Assembly (NCBI GenBank): GCA_963798375.1
Contig: CAWCTG010000008.1
Location: forward strand, 54,571-118,570
Direction: 5' to 3'
Source: Candidatus Binataceae bacterium
GTDB taxonomy: Bacteria > Desulfobacterota > Binatia > Binatales > Binataceae
Length of the DNA stretch: 64,000 bases
Shown: one piece after another, positions 31,462 through 39,094 of the stretch
How positions within the stretch are numbered: position 1 is the first letter of the stretch
Layout: each line of letters starts with the position of its first letter
Translations under genes and position numbers: made by a program
The notes under the pieces: model-generated
Database searches by the model: none
Told to the model about the DNA's origin: nothing
What the model saw: only the letters and a program-made list of their open reading frames with translations

Positions 31462-32634
31462 ATGAATTCGCAGCTCGTACGCCGGGTCCTGTTGGTAGTG
31501 GCGATCATTGTCGCCGCCGCCGCCGCGATTCCCGGTTTTCACTACTATCGCTACATCGAAAGCCACGTCAGCACCGACGACGCCTACGTCGACGGTACCG
31601 TCGCGCTGGTTTCCTCGCGCGTTGCCGGCACCGTCGCCAACCTTTATGTCGAGGACAACTGGACGGTTAAGGAAGGCCAGTTGCTGTTGACGCTGGACTC
31701 GCGCGACTTCGACGTCCGCGTCGAACAGGCCCAGGCTCAGCTCGAGCGCGCCAGGCAATCCGTCGATGAACTCTACGCGGTGGTGGATGCGGCGCGGTCG
31801 GGGGTGGCGCTCACGGTGTCGGAGTTCAAGCAGGCGCAAATCGATTTCATGCGCGCCAAGTCGTTGAAAGAACAAGGCGTCGTCTCCATCGAGCAATACG
31901 ATCAGGCCAACACCGCCCTGCGCGTCGCGATGGCCGATGAAGCGCTGGCGAAGCATCAACTGACGCAGGCCCAGGCCGCCCTCGGATCGCAGAGCGACGG
32001 CCATTCGCGCTACGCACGCCCGGTCGTGCAGCAGGCCGAAGCCGCTCTGGAAGCTGCCAAGCTCGATCTCGACTACACCAAACTGACCGCGCCGTTCGCG
32101 GGCATCGTGACTCATAAGACCGCCCACGTTGGCAATCGCGTCCAGATCGGAGAGCCTCTGCTGGCGATCGTCCCGCTTGGCAAGCTCTACCTCACGGCGA
32201 ACTTCAAGGAGACCCAGCTCACCGACGTGCGCGTCGGTCAAAAGGCGGAGATCGTCGCCGACATCTATCCCGACTACACCTACCGGGGACACGTCGATTC
32301 GATCAGCATGGGCACCGGCGCGGCCTTCTCGCTGCTGCCGCCCGAAAATGCGACCGGCAACTGGGTCAAGGTCGTGCAGCGCGTGCCGGTCAAGATTGTT
32401 ATCGACGGGCCGGAGCCCCAGGACAAACCGCTGCGGCTGGGACTGTCGGTCGAAGTTACGATCGACCTCAACGATCGCAGCGGACCCTTGCTCTCGTCAA
32501 TCACGCAGCGGAGTTACCAGAAGGACGGCCAGACGCTGCCCAACGAGACACTCAAGATGATGCCCCGGACGCCGGCCGAACCGCCGCCGCACACCGGAAC
32601 GCAGCAACATTTTCTGCATCGCCTGATACCCTGA
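31462..32634 (+). CDS. HlyD/EmrA-family membrane fusion protein
   Basis: STDDAYVDG, ANFKETQL, GTGAAFSLLPPENATGNWVKVVQRVPV. Confidence 0.92.
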   Translation: MNSQLVRRVLLVVAIIVAAAAAIPGFHYYRYIESHVSTDDAYVDGTVALVSSRVAGTVANLYVEDNWTVKEGQLLLTLDSRDFDVRVEQAQAQLERARQSVDELYAVVDAARSGVALTVSEFKQAQIDFMRAKSLKEQGVVSIEQYDQANTALRVAMADEALAKHQLTQAQAALGSQSDGHSRYARPVVQQAEAALEAAKLDLDYTKLTAPFAGIVTHKTAHVGNRVQIGEPLLAIVPLGKLYLTANFKETQLTDVRVGQKAEIVADIYPDYTYRGHVDSISMGTGAAFSLLPPENATGNWVKVVQRVPVKIVIDGPEPQDKPLRLGLSVEVTIDLNDRSGPLLSSITQRSYQKDGQTLPNETLKMMPRTPAEPPPHTGTQQHFLHRLIP

Positions 32635-32675
32635 CCGCTCGTTCCCCCTTTCCCCTTCTGACCCCCCTGCCTCAC

Positions 32676-32691
32676 CTGACACGCGTGTCAG
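32676..32691. promoter_or_regulatory. Perfect 16-bp palindrome upstream of the phosphotransferase gene
   Basis: ctgacacgcgtgtcag is its own reverse complement. Confidence 0.45.
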
Positions 32692-32761
32692 TTCGGTTGC
32701 GACTTTTCTGCGCGTGTATTACGCTGCGGTCTGCACGGATTTTCCGCCCGCGCTTTTTCCA

Positions 32762-33859
32762 ATGCTCGACGTTGACGACATGAGGCAACGCCTGTCCGGG
32801 TACCTTGGCGCACCGGTCGCGCGTCTGAGCGTTCTTGCCAGCGGATGGGAAACCACGGTCTTCGAGTTCACGCTCCAATCGGCGTCGAAGATGTACGCGG
32901 CCATCCCGGCCGGCGAATCGATGGTTTTGCGCTTCTACCAAGGCTCCGCCGCCGACGCCAAAGGCGCCCGCGAGCACGCCACCATCGCTCGCCTGTTCGC
33001 CGTCGGCTATTCCGTCCCGCGCCCCTACGCCTTCGAAGCCGATCATCGCGCCTTGGGCGCGCCGTTCCTCATCATGCAGCGGCTGGCGGGCGGCACGCTG
33101 TTCGCGATCCGCAGCTTTCCGAGTGCCTTCAAGACTTTCTCGATGGCATTTTTTTCGTTCGTCCGCGCGCAATCGAGGCTCCACAAATTCGATCCGGCGA
33201 GCGCGCCCCTGCGCGAGATTCCGCGCGCACTTGCGCCGGTCGCGGGCTCCGGCGATGACTCTCCGCTGCTGGATCGCGTGCTCGCGACCATCGCCAATCG
33301 CATCGAGACCGGTCCGCTGCCGGGCCTTCGCGAGGCGCTCAATCTCGTTACCGAACGCGCGGCCAGGTTTCGCCGCAGCCCGGATTCGCTCGTGCACATG
33401 GACTATCATCCGCTCAACGTGATGGTGGACGGGGTGCGGGTGACGGGCGTGCTCGATTGGATGAATGCTGACGTCGGCGATCGCCATCTCGACGCTGCGA
33501 TGACGGCGGTGATTTTGTCGTCGTCCGCGATGGAGCAGCCGCGATGGATGCGCGACAACGTGGTCGGCAACGGGCTTCGCGCGAGCTTCGCGGCGTTGTA
33601 CATGCCGCTCTATCATGCGATGGCGCCGATCGATTTCGAGCGCTTCCGTTACTGCCAGGCGGTCGCGGCGCTGCTGCGGCTCTCGATGCTTGGGATGATG
33701 CGGGCGCACGGCCCGGAAGTCGTGGGCTTCCGCCGCGAGGCGATCAACGAAGTCACGCCCGCGGTCGTCAGACTGCTCAGCCGCTACGCCACCCGCAAAA
33801 GCGGCACCGCGGTGGGCCTCGATGCGCCCGCGCCCAGCCCGCCAGCCCGCGTAAGCTGA
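32762..33859 (+). CDS. APH/choline-kinase-like phosphotransferase
   Basis: LGAPFLIMQRLAG, HMDYHPLNVM, VLDW. Confidence 0.82.
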   Translation: MLDVDDMRQRLSGYLGAPVARLSVLASGWETTVFEFTLQSASKMYAAIPAGESMVLRFYQGSAADAKGAREHATIARLFAVGYSVPRPYAFEADHRALGAPFLIMQRLAGGTLFAIRSFPSAFKTFSMAFFSFVRAQSRLHKFDPASAPLREIPRALAPVAGSGDDSPLLDRVLATIANRIETGPLPGLREALNLVTERAARFRRSPDSLVHMDYHPLNVMVDGVRVTGVLDWMNADVGDRHLDAAMTAVILSSSAMEQPRWMRDNVVGNGLRASFAALYMPLYHAMAPIDFERFRYCQAVAALLRLSMLGMMRAHGPEVVGFRREAINEVTPAVVRLLSRYATRKSGTAVGLDAPAPSPPARVS

Positions 33860-33864
33860 ATCCC

Positions 33865-34107
33865 GTTCTCGCTTACCCCTTCTAACCGGGACGCGCAGAT
33901 ATCCCTCGCCCGACGCTCAAGATCTCGCGTCGGCCTTTACCCTCGGGCGCTGAAGGATCCGGGATTCTTCGCTTCGCTCTAGAATGACACAAAAGAAGTT
34001 CTAACAGGCCGTCAGGCCGCATCTTTGCTTTAACATTGGGTGCAGGGGTCACCCCTGCCCAAGGAGGTGCGGAACCCACGGTGGGTTCCGCATTCAATAA
34101 AGCTCCC
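33865..34107. repeat. Double-hairpin repeat family copy with a nested REP-like insertion
   Basis: gttctcgcttaccccttctaac ... ttaacattgggtgcaggggtcacccctgccc ... gtgcggaacccacggtgggttccgca; contains gattcttcgcttcgctctagaatgac. Confidence 0.85.
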
Positions 34108-34137
34108 CTGCGCGCACCTTCACGCCCGGCACTCAGC

Positions 34138-34503
34138 TCATGCTTCGAACAGCGTCCCCTTCCATGACCGCGAGGCCAGGTCTATCTCACCCTCGCTTGC
34201 GATTCTGCGGCCATCAGAGTTATCGACAATGCCCTTCGTGCTCCACCGATTTTTCCCGATACTCTCGTAGGTCCCCTGACCGATGCCGCTGATGGTGTCG
34301 CCATTATCCAGGTATGCTGCCGAACACCAGCTGAAAGTCCCGCTCTTGCCGCCTACAAAGGTCGACGTGCCGAAGACCGCCCCAAAACTGGTTCCAGTCC
34401 CTTCCCAATTCACTTGGATTAGAATGCTACCCGCTGGTCCAGGACTGTTAGTGGAAGTGATCGACTTCAGGGAAAATTCCCCAATCTTCTTACCCGACGC
34501 CAT
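34138..34503 (-). CDS. Small hypothetical beta-barrel protein
   Basis: RBS ggag and ATG; 121 aa, Gly/Ser/Thr-rich beta pattern; lower GC than flanks. Confidence 0.7.
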   Translation of the reverse strand: MASGKKIGEFSLKSITSTNSPGPAGSILIQVNWEGTGTSFGAVFGTSTFVGGKSGTFSWCSAAYLDNGDTISGIGQGTYESIGKNRWSTKGIVDNSDGRRIASEGEIDLASRSWKGTLFEA

Positions 34504-34555
34504 ATGGTCTCCTTGTTTGCCGAAACTTTGGTGTTAGTACCCGATTCATTGTCGG

Positions 34556-34858
34556 TCAGATCGCGACGTCCTCGAATATCGTCGATGCGACCGCCTCCGC
34601 AGCCGGATCGGAATTGCTCCTGAGTCCGTCTGCTAACTTCTGGTATTCGGGGTCGGACCTGACTTTTCCGAGATGACCCCAGTCGGGATACTGCGCGACC
34701 GCGAGAATATTGTTGGGTTGCGGGCCGACCACCTCACGGCGTACCGCATAGGTTCCTCCGGCGCGCTCGACGATCTTCTTGACCGTCTTCAGCACTTCAA
34801 GAAGCTGCTTCTCCTTGCCCGGCCGCACTTTTAACATTAACGCTGATGTGATCGCCAT
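34556..34858 (-). CDS. Small dimeric alpha/beta-barrel-like protein (NIPSNAP/DUF1330-like)
   Basis: RBS gaggag; MAITSALMLKVRPGKE...YPDW...SDPEYQKL. Confidence 0.65.
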   Translation of the reverse strand: MAITSALMLKVRPGKEKQLLEVLKTVKKIVERAGGTYAVRREVVGPQPNNILAVAQYPDWGHLGKVRSDPEYQKLADGLRSNSDPAAEAVASTIFEDVAI

Positions 34859-34946
34859 TTGATTTTCTCCTCGCGCAAGTTTTGAGAACAGATCCCTTTT
34901 AGTAAAGTGCCAACTTAGCTGCAAGGGCTGATTTGCATTGCCGCGT

Positions 34947-35152
34947 GGGCAGGTGGTGACCCCTGCTCTTAACATTGTGTGCGGGGGTCATCCCTGCCCA
35001 AAAAGGTGCGGAACCCACGGTGGGTTCCGCATTGAATTAAGTTCTCCTGCCGCTCCCCTGCTCTACGCGCGCCGTCCGCCGCAGGCGAAAGGTCTGCTTA
35101 CCCGCCTCGCGTAAAGTAACGGGCGAGGTAATCTCAAACGGCGAACAACCTC
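34947..35152. repeat. Double-hairpin repeat family copy (permuted, with an inverted half and an internal insertion)
   Basis: gggcaggtggtgacccctgc (inverted hairpin 1), then ttaacattgtgtgcgggggtcatccctgccc, gtgcggaacccacggtgggttccgca, aattaagttctc ... taatctcaaacggcgaacaacctc. Confidence 0.85.
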
Positions 35153-35154
35153 AA

Positions 35155-35649
35155 TTACGGGCGGTTCGCGGTACCCGAAAACGTATCGTGAAGGCCCGTC
35201 TCGGAATTAACATCGTTCGCATCGCTGCTGAACTGGAATTGAACACCATAAGGTTGACTAACGGCAATCTGCAGGTCCGCACCGTCATACTTGCCGCAGA
35301 CCGCGAGCGAAGTCGTGATCGCAATGAACCCCGTACCGTCGGAATTGATTGTGTAGCAGCCGCCGGTAATGGGCGTGTTGAACTGCCCGTCCTGGTTGCA
35401 ATTGATGATCCCTCCGGTCACTTTGCCGTTCCCGTTGAGCGTAACCGAGCCACTCGCTGCAAGGGGTGTGACGTTAGTGACATTAGCGCCGAAGAAGCTA
35501 AAGGTGTAGGTGCCCGCGAGTGTCGCCGGCGACCCCGCTTCATTTCCGCCATCTGCACAGATCAGCACTGCTTGGGCGACACCGACTTGGCCTGCCGCGA
35601 TCACCGCCGTAGCCGCGAGCGCCACCAACATGACTCTAAACTTGCGCAT
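35155..35649 (-). CDS. Hypothetical secreted beta-rich protein
   Basis: RBS ggagg, signal peptide ending AQA, LAGTYTF...GCYTINSDGTG. Confidence 0.72.
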   Translation of the reverse strand: MRKFRVMLVALAATAVIAAGQVGVAQAVLICADGGNEAGSPATLAGTYTFSFFGANVTNVTPLAASGSVTLNGNGKVTGGIINCNQDGQFNTPITGGCYTINSDGTGFIAITTSLAVCGKYDGADLQIAVSQPYGVQFQFSSDANDVNSETGLHDTFSGTANRP

Positions 35650-35740
35650 AGATTCCTCCCTGAAATTTCCCCAAAGTTGATCGAGCCCCCTGGAACCGTC
35701 ACTGAAGGTAGCGGATTACTAAAATGCCAAGTATATGTCA

Positions 35741-36305
35741 AATTAAGTTCTCCCGTCGCTCGATGCCCTAACGCGCGACCTAATCTCAAACGGCTAACAA
35801 CCTCGTTCTCGCTTACCCCTTCTAACAGGGACGAAGGCCCGCATCTTTATCCTTAACATTGGGTGCAGGGGTCACCCCTGCCCAAGGAAGTGTGAAACCC
35901 ACGGCGGGTTTCACATACAATTAAGTTCTCGCGTCGCTCGATGCTCTAACGCGCGACCTAATCTCAAACGGCTAACAACCTCGTTCTCCCTTTACCCCTT
36001 CTAACAGGGACGAAGTCCCGCATCTTTATTTTAACATTGGGTGCAGGGGTCACCCCTGCCCAAGGAAGTGTGAAACCCACGGTGGGTTCCGCATTCGAAT
36101 TAATTCTCGCCTCGCTCGAAGCTCTAACGCGCAACCTAATCTCAAACGGCTAACAACCTCGTTCTCGCTTACCCCTTCTAACAGGGACGAAGTCCCGCAT
36201 CTTTATTTTAACATTGGGTGCAGAGCCTGTCCTGAGCGAAGCCGAAGGAGGTCACCCCTGCCCAGGGAAGTGTGAAACCCACGGTGGGTTTCACATTCAA
36301 TGAAG
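35741..36305. repeat. Three tandem ~178-bp non-coding units with two conserved hairpins
   Basis: Units start at 35741, 35919 and 36098; hairpins GCAGGGG-TCA-CCCCTGC and TGTGAAACCCAC-G-GTGGGTTTCACA; unit 3 carries a ~25-nt insertion at 36224-36249. Confidence 0.95.
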
Positions 36306-36309
36306 TGAT

Positions 36310-39094
<2,785 letters not shown>

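What the first reader, a model, noticed from the sequence alone, without database searches (positions are those of the whole stretch)
33865..36305. Array of ~178-bp double-hairpin repeats interleaved with small unrelated genes: candidate gene-cassette or structured-RNA system
Seen in sequence: five copies of the paired hairpins GCAGGGG-TCA-CCCCTGC and TGYGRAACCCAC-G-GTGGGTTYCRCA. Three are in tandem units (35741, 35919, 36098) and two are separated by three small lower-GC genes, all on the minus strand with acnA. The second hairpin shows compensatory variation (tgtgaaac...gtttcaca versus tgcggaac...gttccgca), so structure appears to be under selection; unit 2 is a hybrid of the two forms, implying inter-unit recombination. 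Unit lengths and indels rule out coding. It is not CRISPR (no short repeat with unique spacers) and lacks the paired RYYYAAC...GTTRRRY ends of attC. Inference: an undescribed cassette-capture platform or tandem ncRNA/MITE family acted on in trans.
Basis: partly seen in the sequence, partly recalled or inferred. Interest (0 to 1): 0.82.

Follow-up and report, generated by a model that had tools for sequence, protein, structure and literature searches.

The report
Dispersed modular hairpin repeats of Binatus
The "array" is a local pile-up of a small hairpin-forming repeat that is scattered through the spaces between genes of this uncultured soil bacterium and its relatives, much like the REP, BIME or BOX repeats of well-known bacteria, and not a gene-capture device.

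Summary
In detail: five copies of a two-hairpin core and a 178-nt tandem array (2.7 units) lie between an APH-like kinase gene and acnA, interleaved with three small minus-strand genes. It is not a local system. The same modules occur at 97 loci in this 4.18-Mb Candidatus Binatus MAG. They occur in 17 of 18 congeners, and weaker matches occur in 5 other Binataceae genera. Rfam gave no match.

The family is a mosaic of short modules (Z, T2, A/A2, H1 or its 27-nt-longer form X, D0/D, H2, tail, E). It is mostly intergenic, close to stop codons, biased in orientation against the flanking genes, and turns over fast at orthologous sites.

- No integron integrase, no attC core sites and no terminal inverted repeats were found, and no target duplications were seen at the sites compared.
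- No parent IS and no associated Y1 (RAYT) transposase were found.
- Relatives of the three small genes elsewhere mostly lack the repeat: 2 of 15 loci have it.

Verdict: a new REP/BIME/BOX-like interspersed repeat family with a local tandem duplication. The mobiliser is unknown. Interest is modest.

The parts
32635..32673 (+). 39-nt remnant of a family element (head of module A fused to the 3' half of hairpin 1). It lies between the stop of the HlyD-like gene and a conserved palindromic operator.
   Evidence: orthologous sites in close relatives hold 96-294 nt of family modules in different combinations. More distant congeners have 0-10 nt here.
33859..33893 (+). Truncated head of module A, directly after the APH-like gene's stop.
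   Evidence: family D4: 91% identical to the heads of tandem units 1 and 3.
33955..33998 (+). Module E, a second repeat motif (...TTCGCTTCGCTC.AGAATGACACAAAA...) that often precedes module A2.
   Evidence: Searches show the same E-A2-H1-H2 composite at other loci. Counts are 31-36 copies in the genome.
33999..34110 (+). Copy 1: A2 + hairpin 1 + hairpin 2 (CGGAAC subfamily) + short tail. It lies downstream of the 121-aa/101-aa gene pair.
   Evidence: module map. Folded: two local hairpins, z -3.1.
34138..34503 (-). 121-aa ORF with no Pfam, NCBIfam or PADLOC family. An accessory gene found in 23 of 40 congeners, at other places.
   Evidence: An RNA-library contig covers 34276-34544 at depth 3.5 (not proof of transcription).
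34556..34861 (-). 101-aa ORF with a weak DUF1330-like match below the cut-off (E 0.002, 18.9 against 23 bits). Relatives often sit beside relatives of the 121-aa gene.
   Evidence: An 86% identical DNA copy lies at the same locus in L101.
34940..35152 (+). Copy 2: partial hairpin 1, hairpin 1 (2 mismatches), hairpin 2, then modules T2 (35039-35072) and Z with Z-end (35108-35152). It ends 2 nt from the stop of the 164-aa gene.
   Evidence: On the minus strand, hairpin 2 (35031-35007) is followed by CCTTTTTGGG, the only terminator-like copy.
35155..35649 (-). 164-aa ORF with a signal-peptide-like N-terminus (judged by eye from the translation) and no family. Not found in 40 congeners. A second copy lies at C3:153679-154185.
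   Evidence: The homology between the two copies ends at the ribosome site and just after the stop.
35741..35918 (+). Tandem unit 1: T2-like + Z-end + A + hairpin 1 + hairpin 2 (GAAAC subfamily).
35919..36097 (+). Tandem unit 2: the same modules, with a hybrid hairpin 2 (left arm GAAAC type, right arm CCGCA type).
36098..36321 (+). Tandem unit 3: the same modules, but hairpin 1 is in the long form X (27-nt insert 36224-36250). Its tail (36303-36321) overlaps the last codons and the TAA stop of acnA.
   Evidence: The fold of the X form gives an alternative longer hairpin.
36310..37458 (-). 3' part of acnA (aconitase C-terminal domain). Its last residues (...REG*) are read from the repeat tail.

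Best explanation
The region holds members of a lineage-restricted family of small, modular, hairpin-forming interspersed repeats of Candidatus Binatus (Binataceae). The family is of the same kind as enterobacterial REP/BIME, Pseudomonas REP arrays and pneumococcal BOX elements.

Shown:
- The family is a mosaic of short modules: Z, T2, A or A2, hairpin 1 or its long form X, D0/D, hairpin 2, tail and E. They combine in many ways.
- It sits almost only between genes, usually within a few tens of bases of a stop codon.
- It mostly points opposite to the flanking genes, so the mRNA would carry hairpin 2, then hairpin 1, then A.
- Its make-up changes quickly at orthologous sites.
- The whole 178-nt unit is built of family modules. 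The array is therefore a local tandem duplication of one long-form element behind acnA.
- The units now differ in hairpin 1 (plain or X) and in hairpin 2 subfamily.
- The three small genes are ordinary accessory genes in a variable spot between two converging genes. Each transcription unit there is followed by an element.

Inferred:
- The differences between units came by exchange (gene conversion) with other copies.
- The elements are selfish or near-neutral DNA, tolerated where they do not break genes.
- As part of 3' or intercistronic RNA, their GC-rich stem-loops probably act as barriers to 3' exonucleases or as U-tract-poor terminators.
- They also give homologous recombination many short substrates, which helps explain the local gene turnover.

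How they multiply is not known. No dedicated enzyme was found.
For: Dispersal:
- blastn of one unit against the genome gave 117 matches, merged into 97 loci on 25 of 32 contigs.
- Hairpin 1 occurs 52 times as an exact 17-mer.
- Module counts are H1 106, H2 64, X 27, D 30, E 36.
- The H1+H2 covariance model gives 71 matches in this genome, with 75 candidates scored.

Range:
- 17 of 18 congeners match, and 0 of 12 genomes of other families.
- In a second draw, 5 of 6 congeners match, 0 of 11 genomes of other genera of the family, and 0 of 133 genomes of 18 other families of the class.
- With the covariance model, 9 of 61 Binataceae genomes in 6 of 30 genera match.

Placement, on my own crude gene calls:
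- 86 of 97 loci are not inside a called gene: 55 between tandem genes, 20 convergent, 9 divergent, 2 at contig ends.
- Convergent sites are enriched (Fisher p 0.047).
- In tandem sites 39 point against the genes and 16 with them (binomial p 0.003).
- The median distance is 42 nt to the upstream stop and 146 nt to the next start.

Turnover:
- At the HlyD|APH site, seven close genomes have seven different states, and more distant congeners have an empty site.
- In several relatives the acnA stop codon lies inside hairpin 1.

Structure: hairpin 2 is 93.8% paired with two covarying pairs. Non-Watson-Crick cells are 27 A.C against 12 G.T on the element's plus strand, so wobble pairs favour the mRNA-sense strand.

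Array: only two tandem arrays made of family modules exist in the genome, this one and C32:191659-192089.

Stability: contigs from DNA runs of two studies carry the unique parts, including one 1228-nt contig across 34569-35797.

Precedent: P. fluorescens has tandem arrays of two REP types spaced 112 and 72 bp apart (PMC3116915, section 12). BOX elements are modular, species-restricted and enriched between convergent genes (PMC3049150, passages).
Against: - No mobilising enzyme was found, so "mobile" is inferred from dispersal and from presence/absence at orthologous sites only.
- The presence/absence pattern at the two sites studied fits one old insertion followed by change in place. No recent clean insertion was caught: four indels between near-identical contigs show no target duplication.
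- The RNA role is untested. Whole-element folds are only modestly better than shuffles (z -1.2 to -3.1). Terminator-like sites are not above chance (3 found, 2.8 expected).
- RNA-library contigs cannot show strand or ends.
- The orientation and context statistics rest on my own gene calls. The bin also holds near-duplicate contigs, so loci are not all independent.
- Two genomes (the window and L101) do show different small genes separated by family modules at this one locus. A purely passive repeat does not predict that.
Confidence: 0.75

Rival explanations
1. Integron-like or other cassette-capture platform. Each small gene with its downstream double hairpin is a cassette, inserted by a site-specific recombinase acting on the hairpins.
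For: Within the window, each transcription unit is followed by an element in one orientation. L101 has other small genes separated by modules at the same locus. Module borders often fall at YTTAAC/GTTAA.
Against: No integron integrase over the cut-off (best 78 against 265 bits). There are 0 complementary RYYYAAC...GTTRRRY pairs in the region. The hairpins are two separate near-perfect palindromes, not one long imperfect one. There are 97 dispersed loci, mostly single, beside genes of all sizes. Relatives of the cargo genes lack the repeat at 13 of 15 loci. The duplicated 164-aa gene does not carry the repeat with it.
Confidence: 0.03
2. REPIN/RAYT system whose Y1 transposase gene is missing from this assembly. 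The hairpins are REPs replicated by a single-copy RAYT.
For: High-copy extragenic palindromes with conserved 5' flanks. The H1-D0-D-H1 composites are inverted doublets that can form long hairpins. Genes flanked by repeats assemble poorly in MAGs, and this genome is 95.4% complete.
Against: PF01797 gives 0 candidates in this genome. It matches only 10 of 41 congeners (9 over the cut-off). Matches include genomes with few or no repeats (G017, G031), while most repeat-rich genomes have none. None of 6 Y1 loci examined has a family module within about 1.5 kb.
Confidence: 0.08
3. Recombinase-free gene shuffling. The repeats are passive, but they act as portable homology, so host recombination between dispersed copies swaps gene-sized blocks at hot spots such as APH|acnA.
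For: Loci are clustered: 6 ten-kb bins hold 3 or more loci against 0.68 expected. Gene content at this locus varies. The window and L101 carry different genes between family modules. The homology of the 164-aa gene copies ends at the ORF borders next to module ends. Hybrid unit 2 and the X form in unit 3 point to exchange between copies.
Against: Other relatives show gene gain and loss at this locus with no family modules detected there: a racemase-like gene, an IS110-like element and a 311-aa gene. Cargo relatives elsewhere mostly lack repeats. ORF-bounded homology at 82-86% identity is expected anyway from fast intergenic divergence.
Confidence: 0.12
4. Functional RNA or protein-binding sites selected for the host: a family of cis-regulatory or small RNAs, or palindromic operators for a dimeric DNA-binding protein.
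For: Hairpin 2 keeps perfect symmetry through two compensatory changes. Orientation is biased relative to genes. There is a wobble asymmetry.
Against: No Rfam match at E up to 1 in the region, or up to 0.1 in five other repeat-rich loci. Individual copies are not conserved at orthologous sites. The module make-up is highly variable. Neighbouring genes have no common theme. The three subfamilies also differ in the unpaired linker, as expected from copying of master sequences.
Confidence: 0.07

Closest known systems
REP sequences, BIMEs and REP tandem arrays (Enterobacteria, Pseudomonas)
   Same: Short GC-rich extragenic palindromes at high copy number, combined with other short motifs into mosaics, lying after genes, in singlets, inverted doublets and tandem arrays. 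P. fluorescens SBW25 has arrays of two REP types spaced 112 and 72 bp apart, close to the 178-nt period here (PMC3116915, abstract and section 12).
   Different: No sequence relation is claimed. No RAYT/Y1 transposase is found in this genome or next to family copies in relatives. The two hairpins are different self-complementary palindromes with 7-bp and 12-bp stems. The modules are longer and more numerous.
Pneumococcal BOX elements (also RUP and SPRITE)
   Same: Modular composite repeats with a variable number of tandem inner modules. They are restricted to one species group, enriched between convergent genes, follow the coding bias, are predicted to fold into stem-loops if transcribed, and are thought to be parasitic with slow turnover (PMC3049150, abstract and passages).
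   Different: BOX and RUP are reported there to have terminal inverted repeats and target duplications. Neither was found here. The base composition is GC-rich here and AT-rich there for RUP and SPRITE. Sequence relatedness was not tested, because no BOX sequence was at hand.
Integron attC sites and gene cassettes
   Same: Within the window, small genes in one orientation are each followed by a structured repeat.
   Different: No IntI, no R''/R' core sites, and no single long imperfect palindrome with extrahelical bases. The copies are dispersed genome-wide rather than in one array.
MITEs derived from insertion sequences
   Same: Size of about 80-200 nt, high copy number, non-coding, and polymorphic in presence between genomes.
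   Different: No terminal inverted repeats (local scores equal to shuffles in 6 of 6 full copies). No target duplications at the filled and empty sites compared. None of the multi-copy IS elements of this genome shares ends with the family.

Membership tests
Integron (attC / cassette array) | An integron integrase (IntI) in the genome or beside the array | tested here: not met
   TIGR02249 in the own genome: best 78.2 bits against a cut-off of 265, with 0 matches over the cut-off. The same model rings below the cut-off in all 14 control genomes.
Integron (attC / cassette array) | attC with complementary core sites RYYYAAC ... GTTRRRY bounding one imperfect palindrome | tested here: not met
   0 such pairs (40-135 nt apart, both strands) in 33859-36305. 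Only 3 RYYYAAC words in all.
Integron (attC / cassette array) | Repeats confined to arrays of cassettes | tested here: not met
   97 loci on 25 contigs, mostly single.
REPIN / RAYT | High-copy extragenic palindromes, over-represented as inverted doublets | tested here: inconclusive
   High-copy extragenic palindromes: yes. Inverted doublets are seen only in the H1-D0-D-H1 composites. Over-representation of doublets was not computed.
REPIN / RAYT | A Y1 (IS200-like) RAYT gene in the genome, flanked by the REPs | tested here: not met
   PF01797: 0 in the own genome (95.4% complete) and 10 of 41 congeners. 0 of 6 Y1 loci have family modules within about 1.5 kb.
MITE | Terminal inverted repeats | tested here: not met
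   Local alignment of the two ends scored 5-7 against a shuffle mean of 5.4-6.4 in 6 of 6 full copies.
MITE | Target-site duplications at insertions | tested here: not met
   Filled against empty orthologous sites, and four indels between near-identical contigs, show none. Few sites were examined.
MITE | A parent IS sharing the ends | tested here: not met
   Self-comparison of the genome found IS3-like, IS110-like and other multi-copy elements. None has ends like the modules. Only this genome was examined.
BIME / BOX-type modular interspersed repeats (a kind, not a sequence family) | A mosaic of recurrent short modules in variable order and number, intergenic, lineage-restricted | tested here: met
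   (modules). (intergenic). (range).
Rfam RNA families | A match to a curated covariance model | tested here: not met
   No match near a gathering score in 32000-38000: the best is 20 bits against 35. No match at E up to 0.1 in five other repeat-rich loci.
CRISPR | Short identical repeats alternating with unique spacers of similar length | tested here: not met
   The only regular array has a 178-nt unit with no unique spacers.

The most novel reading that the evidence does not exclude
Binataceae carry a RAYT-independent, modular hairpin-repeat system that is copied or exchanged between loci by a mechanism not yet known: either an undiscovered enzyme that recognises the conserved YTTAAC-plus-hairpin borders, or hairpin-primed gene conversion. 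Through it, gene-sized blocks bounded at stop codons are replaced at hot spots. This would amount to cassette-like gene turnover without an integron.
Probability: 0.12. Interest if true: 0.6.

Novelty: new member of a known kind. Interest (0 to 1): 0.27.

Why it matters
It gives a first description of the interspersed repeats of an abundant but uncultured group of soil bacteria.

- Three searches of the paper library found nothing on the subject. A name search held 95 papers, and none of the 15 listed titles concerns repeats. "Binatota" with "palindromic" gave 2 papers that are unrelated by title. "Binatus" with "interspersed repeat" gave 0.
- The repeats explain why short-read assemblies of these genomes break there: contigs of public runs stop at the repeats.
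- They rewrite the C-terminal codons and stop codons of neighbouring genes such as acnA.
- They mark regions of fast gene turnover.
- That the family persists in many genomes with no Y1 transposase detected is of some interest for how such repeat populations are maintained.

It does not reveal a new kind of genetic system.

Tried and rejected
1. **Repeat end as a ribosome site.** On the mRNA-sense strand the purine-rich end of module A reads GGGTAAGGGGGAAAG. Only 4 of 31 elements have an ORF of 80 or more codons starting within 45 nt of it. Rejected.
2. **Head and tail as a target duplication.** They do not match each other copy by copy (read), and the ends are not inverted repeats.
3. **An M28 peptidase gene "flanked by inverted elements" in four copies.** The copies lie in 2-10-kb near-duplicate contigs at 89-100% identity. 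They are strain or bin redundancy, not transposition.
4. **Orientation against GC skew.** 40 loci run against the skew and 26 with it, about the same as the gene-strand bias. This does not separate replication from transcription.
5. **Viral contigs.** Hairpin 1 with its flank is on 5 contigs and hairpin 2 on 0. No lead.
6. **Terminator and promoter scan.** Not above shuffles.
7. **Joints in laid contigs.** Many skips between repeat copies, all with sides under 30 letters. They were taken as cross-matches among family members and other organisms, not as evidence for copy-number variation. Parts without RNA cover are not interpreted.
8. **Naming the cargo.** Pfam, NCBIfam, PADLOC and the protein atlas give no family for the 121-aa and 164-aa proteins. 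The nearest named atlas cluster, DUF3237 at 0.76, is a lead only.
10. **First gene caller.** The first version mis-called antisense ORFs and was replaced.
Full report
**What is there.**
The sequence at 33859-36305 holds five copies of a 79-nt core with two hairpins. Hairpin 1 (H1) is GCAGGGG-TCA-CCCCTGC. Hairpin 2 (H2) is TGYGRAACCCAC-G-GTGGGTTYCRCA. The copies lie at 34017, 34956, 35840, 36018 and 36220, all in one orientation.

Tandem Repeats Finder reports a 178-nt unit, 2.7 copies, 94% matches, at 35741-36223. Between the copies lie three minus-strand ORFs of 121, 101 and 164 aa. acnA ends at 36310 on the same strand, and an APH-type phosphotransferase gene ends at 33859 on the plus strand. 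GC is 51-58% here against 62-68% outside.

The fifth copy does not have the plain H1. It has a form 27 nt longer (X, insert 36224-36250).

**It is a dispersed family, not a local device.**
- One 179-nt unit finds 117 blastn matches in the genome in which the window lies (4.18 Mb, 32 contigs, 95.4% complete). I merged them into 97 loci on 25 contigs, on both strands.
- The exact 17-mer of H1 occurs 52 times.
- Reading the loci shows a mosaic of recurrent modules: Z (a small hairpin, CCTCGC...GCGAGG) with a Z-end; T2; A or A2 (TTCTAAC followed by a 5-bp hairpin and GCATC); H1 or X; D0 and D, which with two H1 copies form long inverted doublets; H2; a tail; and E, a second motif.
- The first 57 nt of the tandem unit looked local at first. 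They are a diverged T2 plus Z-end, seen in other loci and other genomes. The whole 178-nt unit is therefore one long-form element.
- Only two tandem arrays built of family modules exist in the genome: this one and a 124-nt array of Z+E at C32:191659-192089.

**Whose genome, and how far the family reaches.**
Record titles of syntenic loci name Candidatus Binatus and Binataceae, which are uncultured soil and peat bacteria.
- By DNA search, the family is in 17 of 18 congeners and in 0 of 12 genomes of other families.
- In a second draw it is in 5 of 6 congeners, 0 of 11 genomes of other genera of the family, and 0 of 133 genomes of 18 other families of the class.
- The congeners without it, or with one to three matches (G010, G015, G017, G031), are also those with the most divergent acnA (80-85% identity).
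- A covariance model of H1+H2 reaches further: 9 of 61 Binataceae genomes, in 6 of 30 genera. One other genus has 24-29 matches per genome.
- Counts include genomes marked unpublished (G031, and G036 in some).

**Where the copies sit.**
With my own codon-usage gene calls (3537 genes, 82% coding), 86 of 97 loci are not inside a called gene. The 11 exceptions lie in ORFs that I called from their longest start, and I did not check them further.
- 55 loci are between tandem genes, 20 between convergent genes, 9 between divergent genes and 2 at contig ends.
- Convergent sites are mildly enriched (Fisher p 0.047).
- In tandem sites, 39 elements point against the genes and 16 with them (p 0.003).
- The median distance is 42 nt to the upstream stop and 146 nt to the next start.
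- Loci are clustered: 6 ten-kb bins hold three or more, against 0.68 expected. The neighbouring genes range from 77 to 709 aa.

These figures are approximate, because the bin contains near-duplicate contigs.

**Structure.**
Folding gives the local hairpins and little else (z -1.2 to -3.1).
- On 43 copies, H2 is 93.8% paired. Two pairs switch between CG and UA (22 and 19) and between AU and GC (27 and 14). The covariation score exceeds all 500 shuffles and all slid controls.
- The copies fall into three subfamilies that also differ in the unpaired linker (GAGG, GAAG, GATG). The covariation therefore records few events.
- Mismatches are 27 A.C against 12 G.T on the element's plus strand. Wobble pairs would therefore form mainly on the opposite strand, which is the mRNA sense in the favoured orientation. 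This is a weak hint of selection at the RNA level.
- Rfam has nothing.
- Terminator-like sites are at chance level. The exception is the copy behind the 164-aa gene, where a changed linker gives a run of U after H2.

**The locus in relatives.**
The order HlyD-like gene, APH gene, acnA is kept in 19 of 20 congeners fetched and in most of 55 Binataceae loci.
- The usual content of the APH|acnA gap is a small plus-strand gene for a 104-aa protein (named sp105 here; its hydrophobic N-terminus suggests secretion, judged by eye). In one group there is also a gene that by its motifs looks like an Asp/Glu racemase (not scanned against any library).
- More distant genomes have gaps of 13-100 nt.
- Family modules occur at this gap, and at the HlyD|APH gap, only in the window's closest relatives. 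Every genome there has a different module combination. The window keeps a 39-nt remnant at 32635-32673.
- In several relatives the last codons and the stop of acnA (…RQG*) are read from H1. In the window, …REG* is read from the tail.
- The window lacks sp105 and has three other genes.
- Only one other genome (L101) resembles the window. It has a glyoxalase (VOC)-like gene and a SnoaL-like gene (both named by eye from the translations, not scanned), then an 86% identical copy of the 101-aa gene. These are separated by X+D0 and D+H1 modules.
- Elsewhere the locus gains and loses genes with no family modules detected there.

**The cargo.**
- The 164-aa gene was found in none of 40 congeners. It has a second copy in this bin whose homology covers only the ribosome site and the ORF.
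- The 121-aa gene is in 23 of 40 congeners and relatives of the 101-aa gene in 18 of 40, at other places. The two are often adjacent to each other.
- Of 15 such loci, 2 have a family repeat within about 2 kb.
- No family names were obtained.
- Contigs from DNA runs of two studies carry the unique parts of the region with few differences. They include one contig across the 101-aa gene, copy 2 and the 164-aa gene. Contigs in an RNA library cover parts of all three genes at depth 2-3.5, which does not prove transcription.

**What it is not.**
- No integron integrase is over the cut-off, and no attC core-site pairs are present.
- No Y1/RAYT gene is in this genome. Y1 genes occur in 10 of 41 congeners, out of step with the repeat, and 0 of 6 examined are flanked by it.
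- There are no terminal inverted repeats, and no target duplications at filled against empty sites or at four indels between near-identical contigs.
- The IS3-like, IS110-like and other multi-copy elements of the genome have unrelated ends.

**Reading.**
The best account is a REP/BIME/BOX-like family of small interspersed repeats.
- They are tolerated in gene ends and intergenic spacers.
- They are diversified by exchange between copies, and were locally duplicated behind acnA.
- The likely effect on the cell is through stem-loops in 3' or intercistronic RNA, and through homology for recombination.
- The means of spread is unknown.

Published parallels are the tandem arrays of two REP types in P. 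fluorescens (PMC3116915, abstract and section 12) and the modular, species-restricted BOX elements, which are enriched between convergent genes (PMC3049150, abstract and passages). Other REPIN papers were seen only in the listing. I found no paper on repeats of Binatota.

Noticed in passing
window 37205-37570 (minus strand): acnA is split into two overlapping ORFs (37205-39094 and 36310-37458). The reading frame shifts by one base near 37530-37540, at ...[22 protein letters not shown]. Relatives have one open frame of about 930-1000 aa. This is either an assembly error or a real frameshift.
   Followed up: partly
window 32674-32693: A perfect palindrome, ACCTGACACGCGTGTCAGKT, lies just upstream of the APH-like gene. 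It is conserved in nearly all Binatus loci compared, so it is a likely operator for a dimeric regulator.
   Followed up: no
window 33860-36305 compared with relatives (e.g. L049 6478-7006): A small gene for a 104-aa protein (MRKCYATALVLI...) lies between the APH gene and acnA in most congeners but is missing from the window. One group of relatives also has a gene there that looks like an Asp/Glu racemase.
   Followed up: partly
G000 contigs C12/C22, C22/C25, C20/C3/C24/C25/C17 and others: The bin holds many 2-10-kb contig pairs at 89-99% identity. It therefore mixes closely related strains or species, and apparent paralogues and copy counts need care.
   Followed up: partly
G000:C32:191659-192089: A second tandem array made of family modules (Z+E, period 124 nt, 3.5 copies). 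Module E has 31 matches in this genome and 0-2 in each of 120 other genomes of the phylum.
   Followed up: partly
G000:C1:26761-28273 and five other places: A 1513-bp IS3-like element in six copies at 99.9-100% identity, so recently active. An IS110-like element of about 1430 bp is present in three copies. Neither is related to the hairpin repeats.
   Followed up: partly
window 35007-35031 (minus strand): In the copy behind the 164-aa gene, the linker has changed from CCAAGGAGG to CCAAAAAGG. This gives hairpin 2 a run of U on the gene strand, making it the only copy that looks like a classical intrinsic terminator.
   Followed up: no
L101 (record JBKQWH010000295.1): The record title names Capsulimonadaceae, but the contig is syntenic with Binatus loci, 86% identical to them in the APH protein, and carries the Binatus repeat modules. 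It is probably a mis-binned contig.
   Followed up: no
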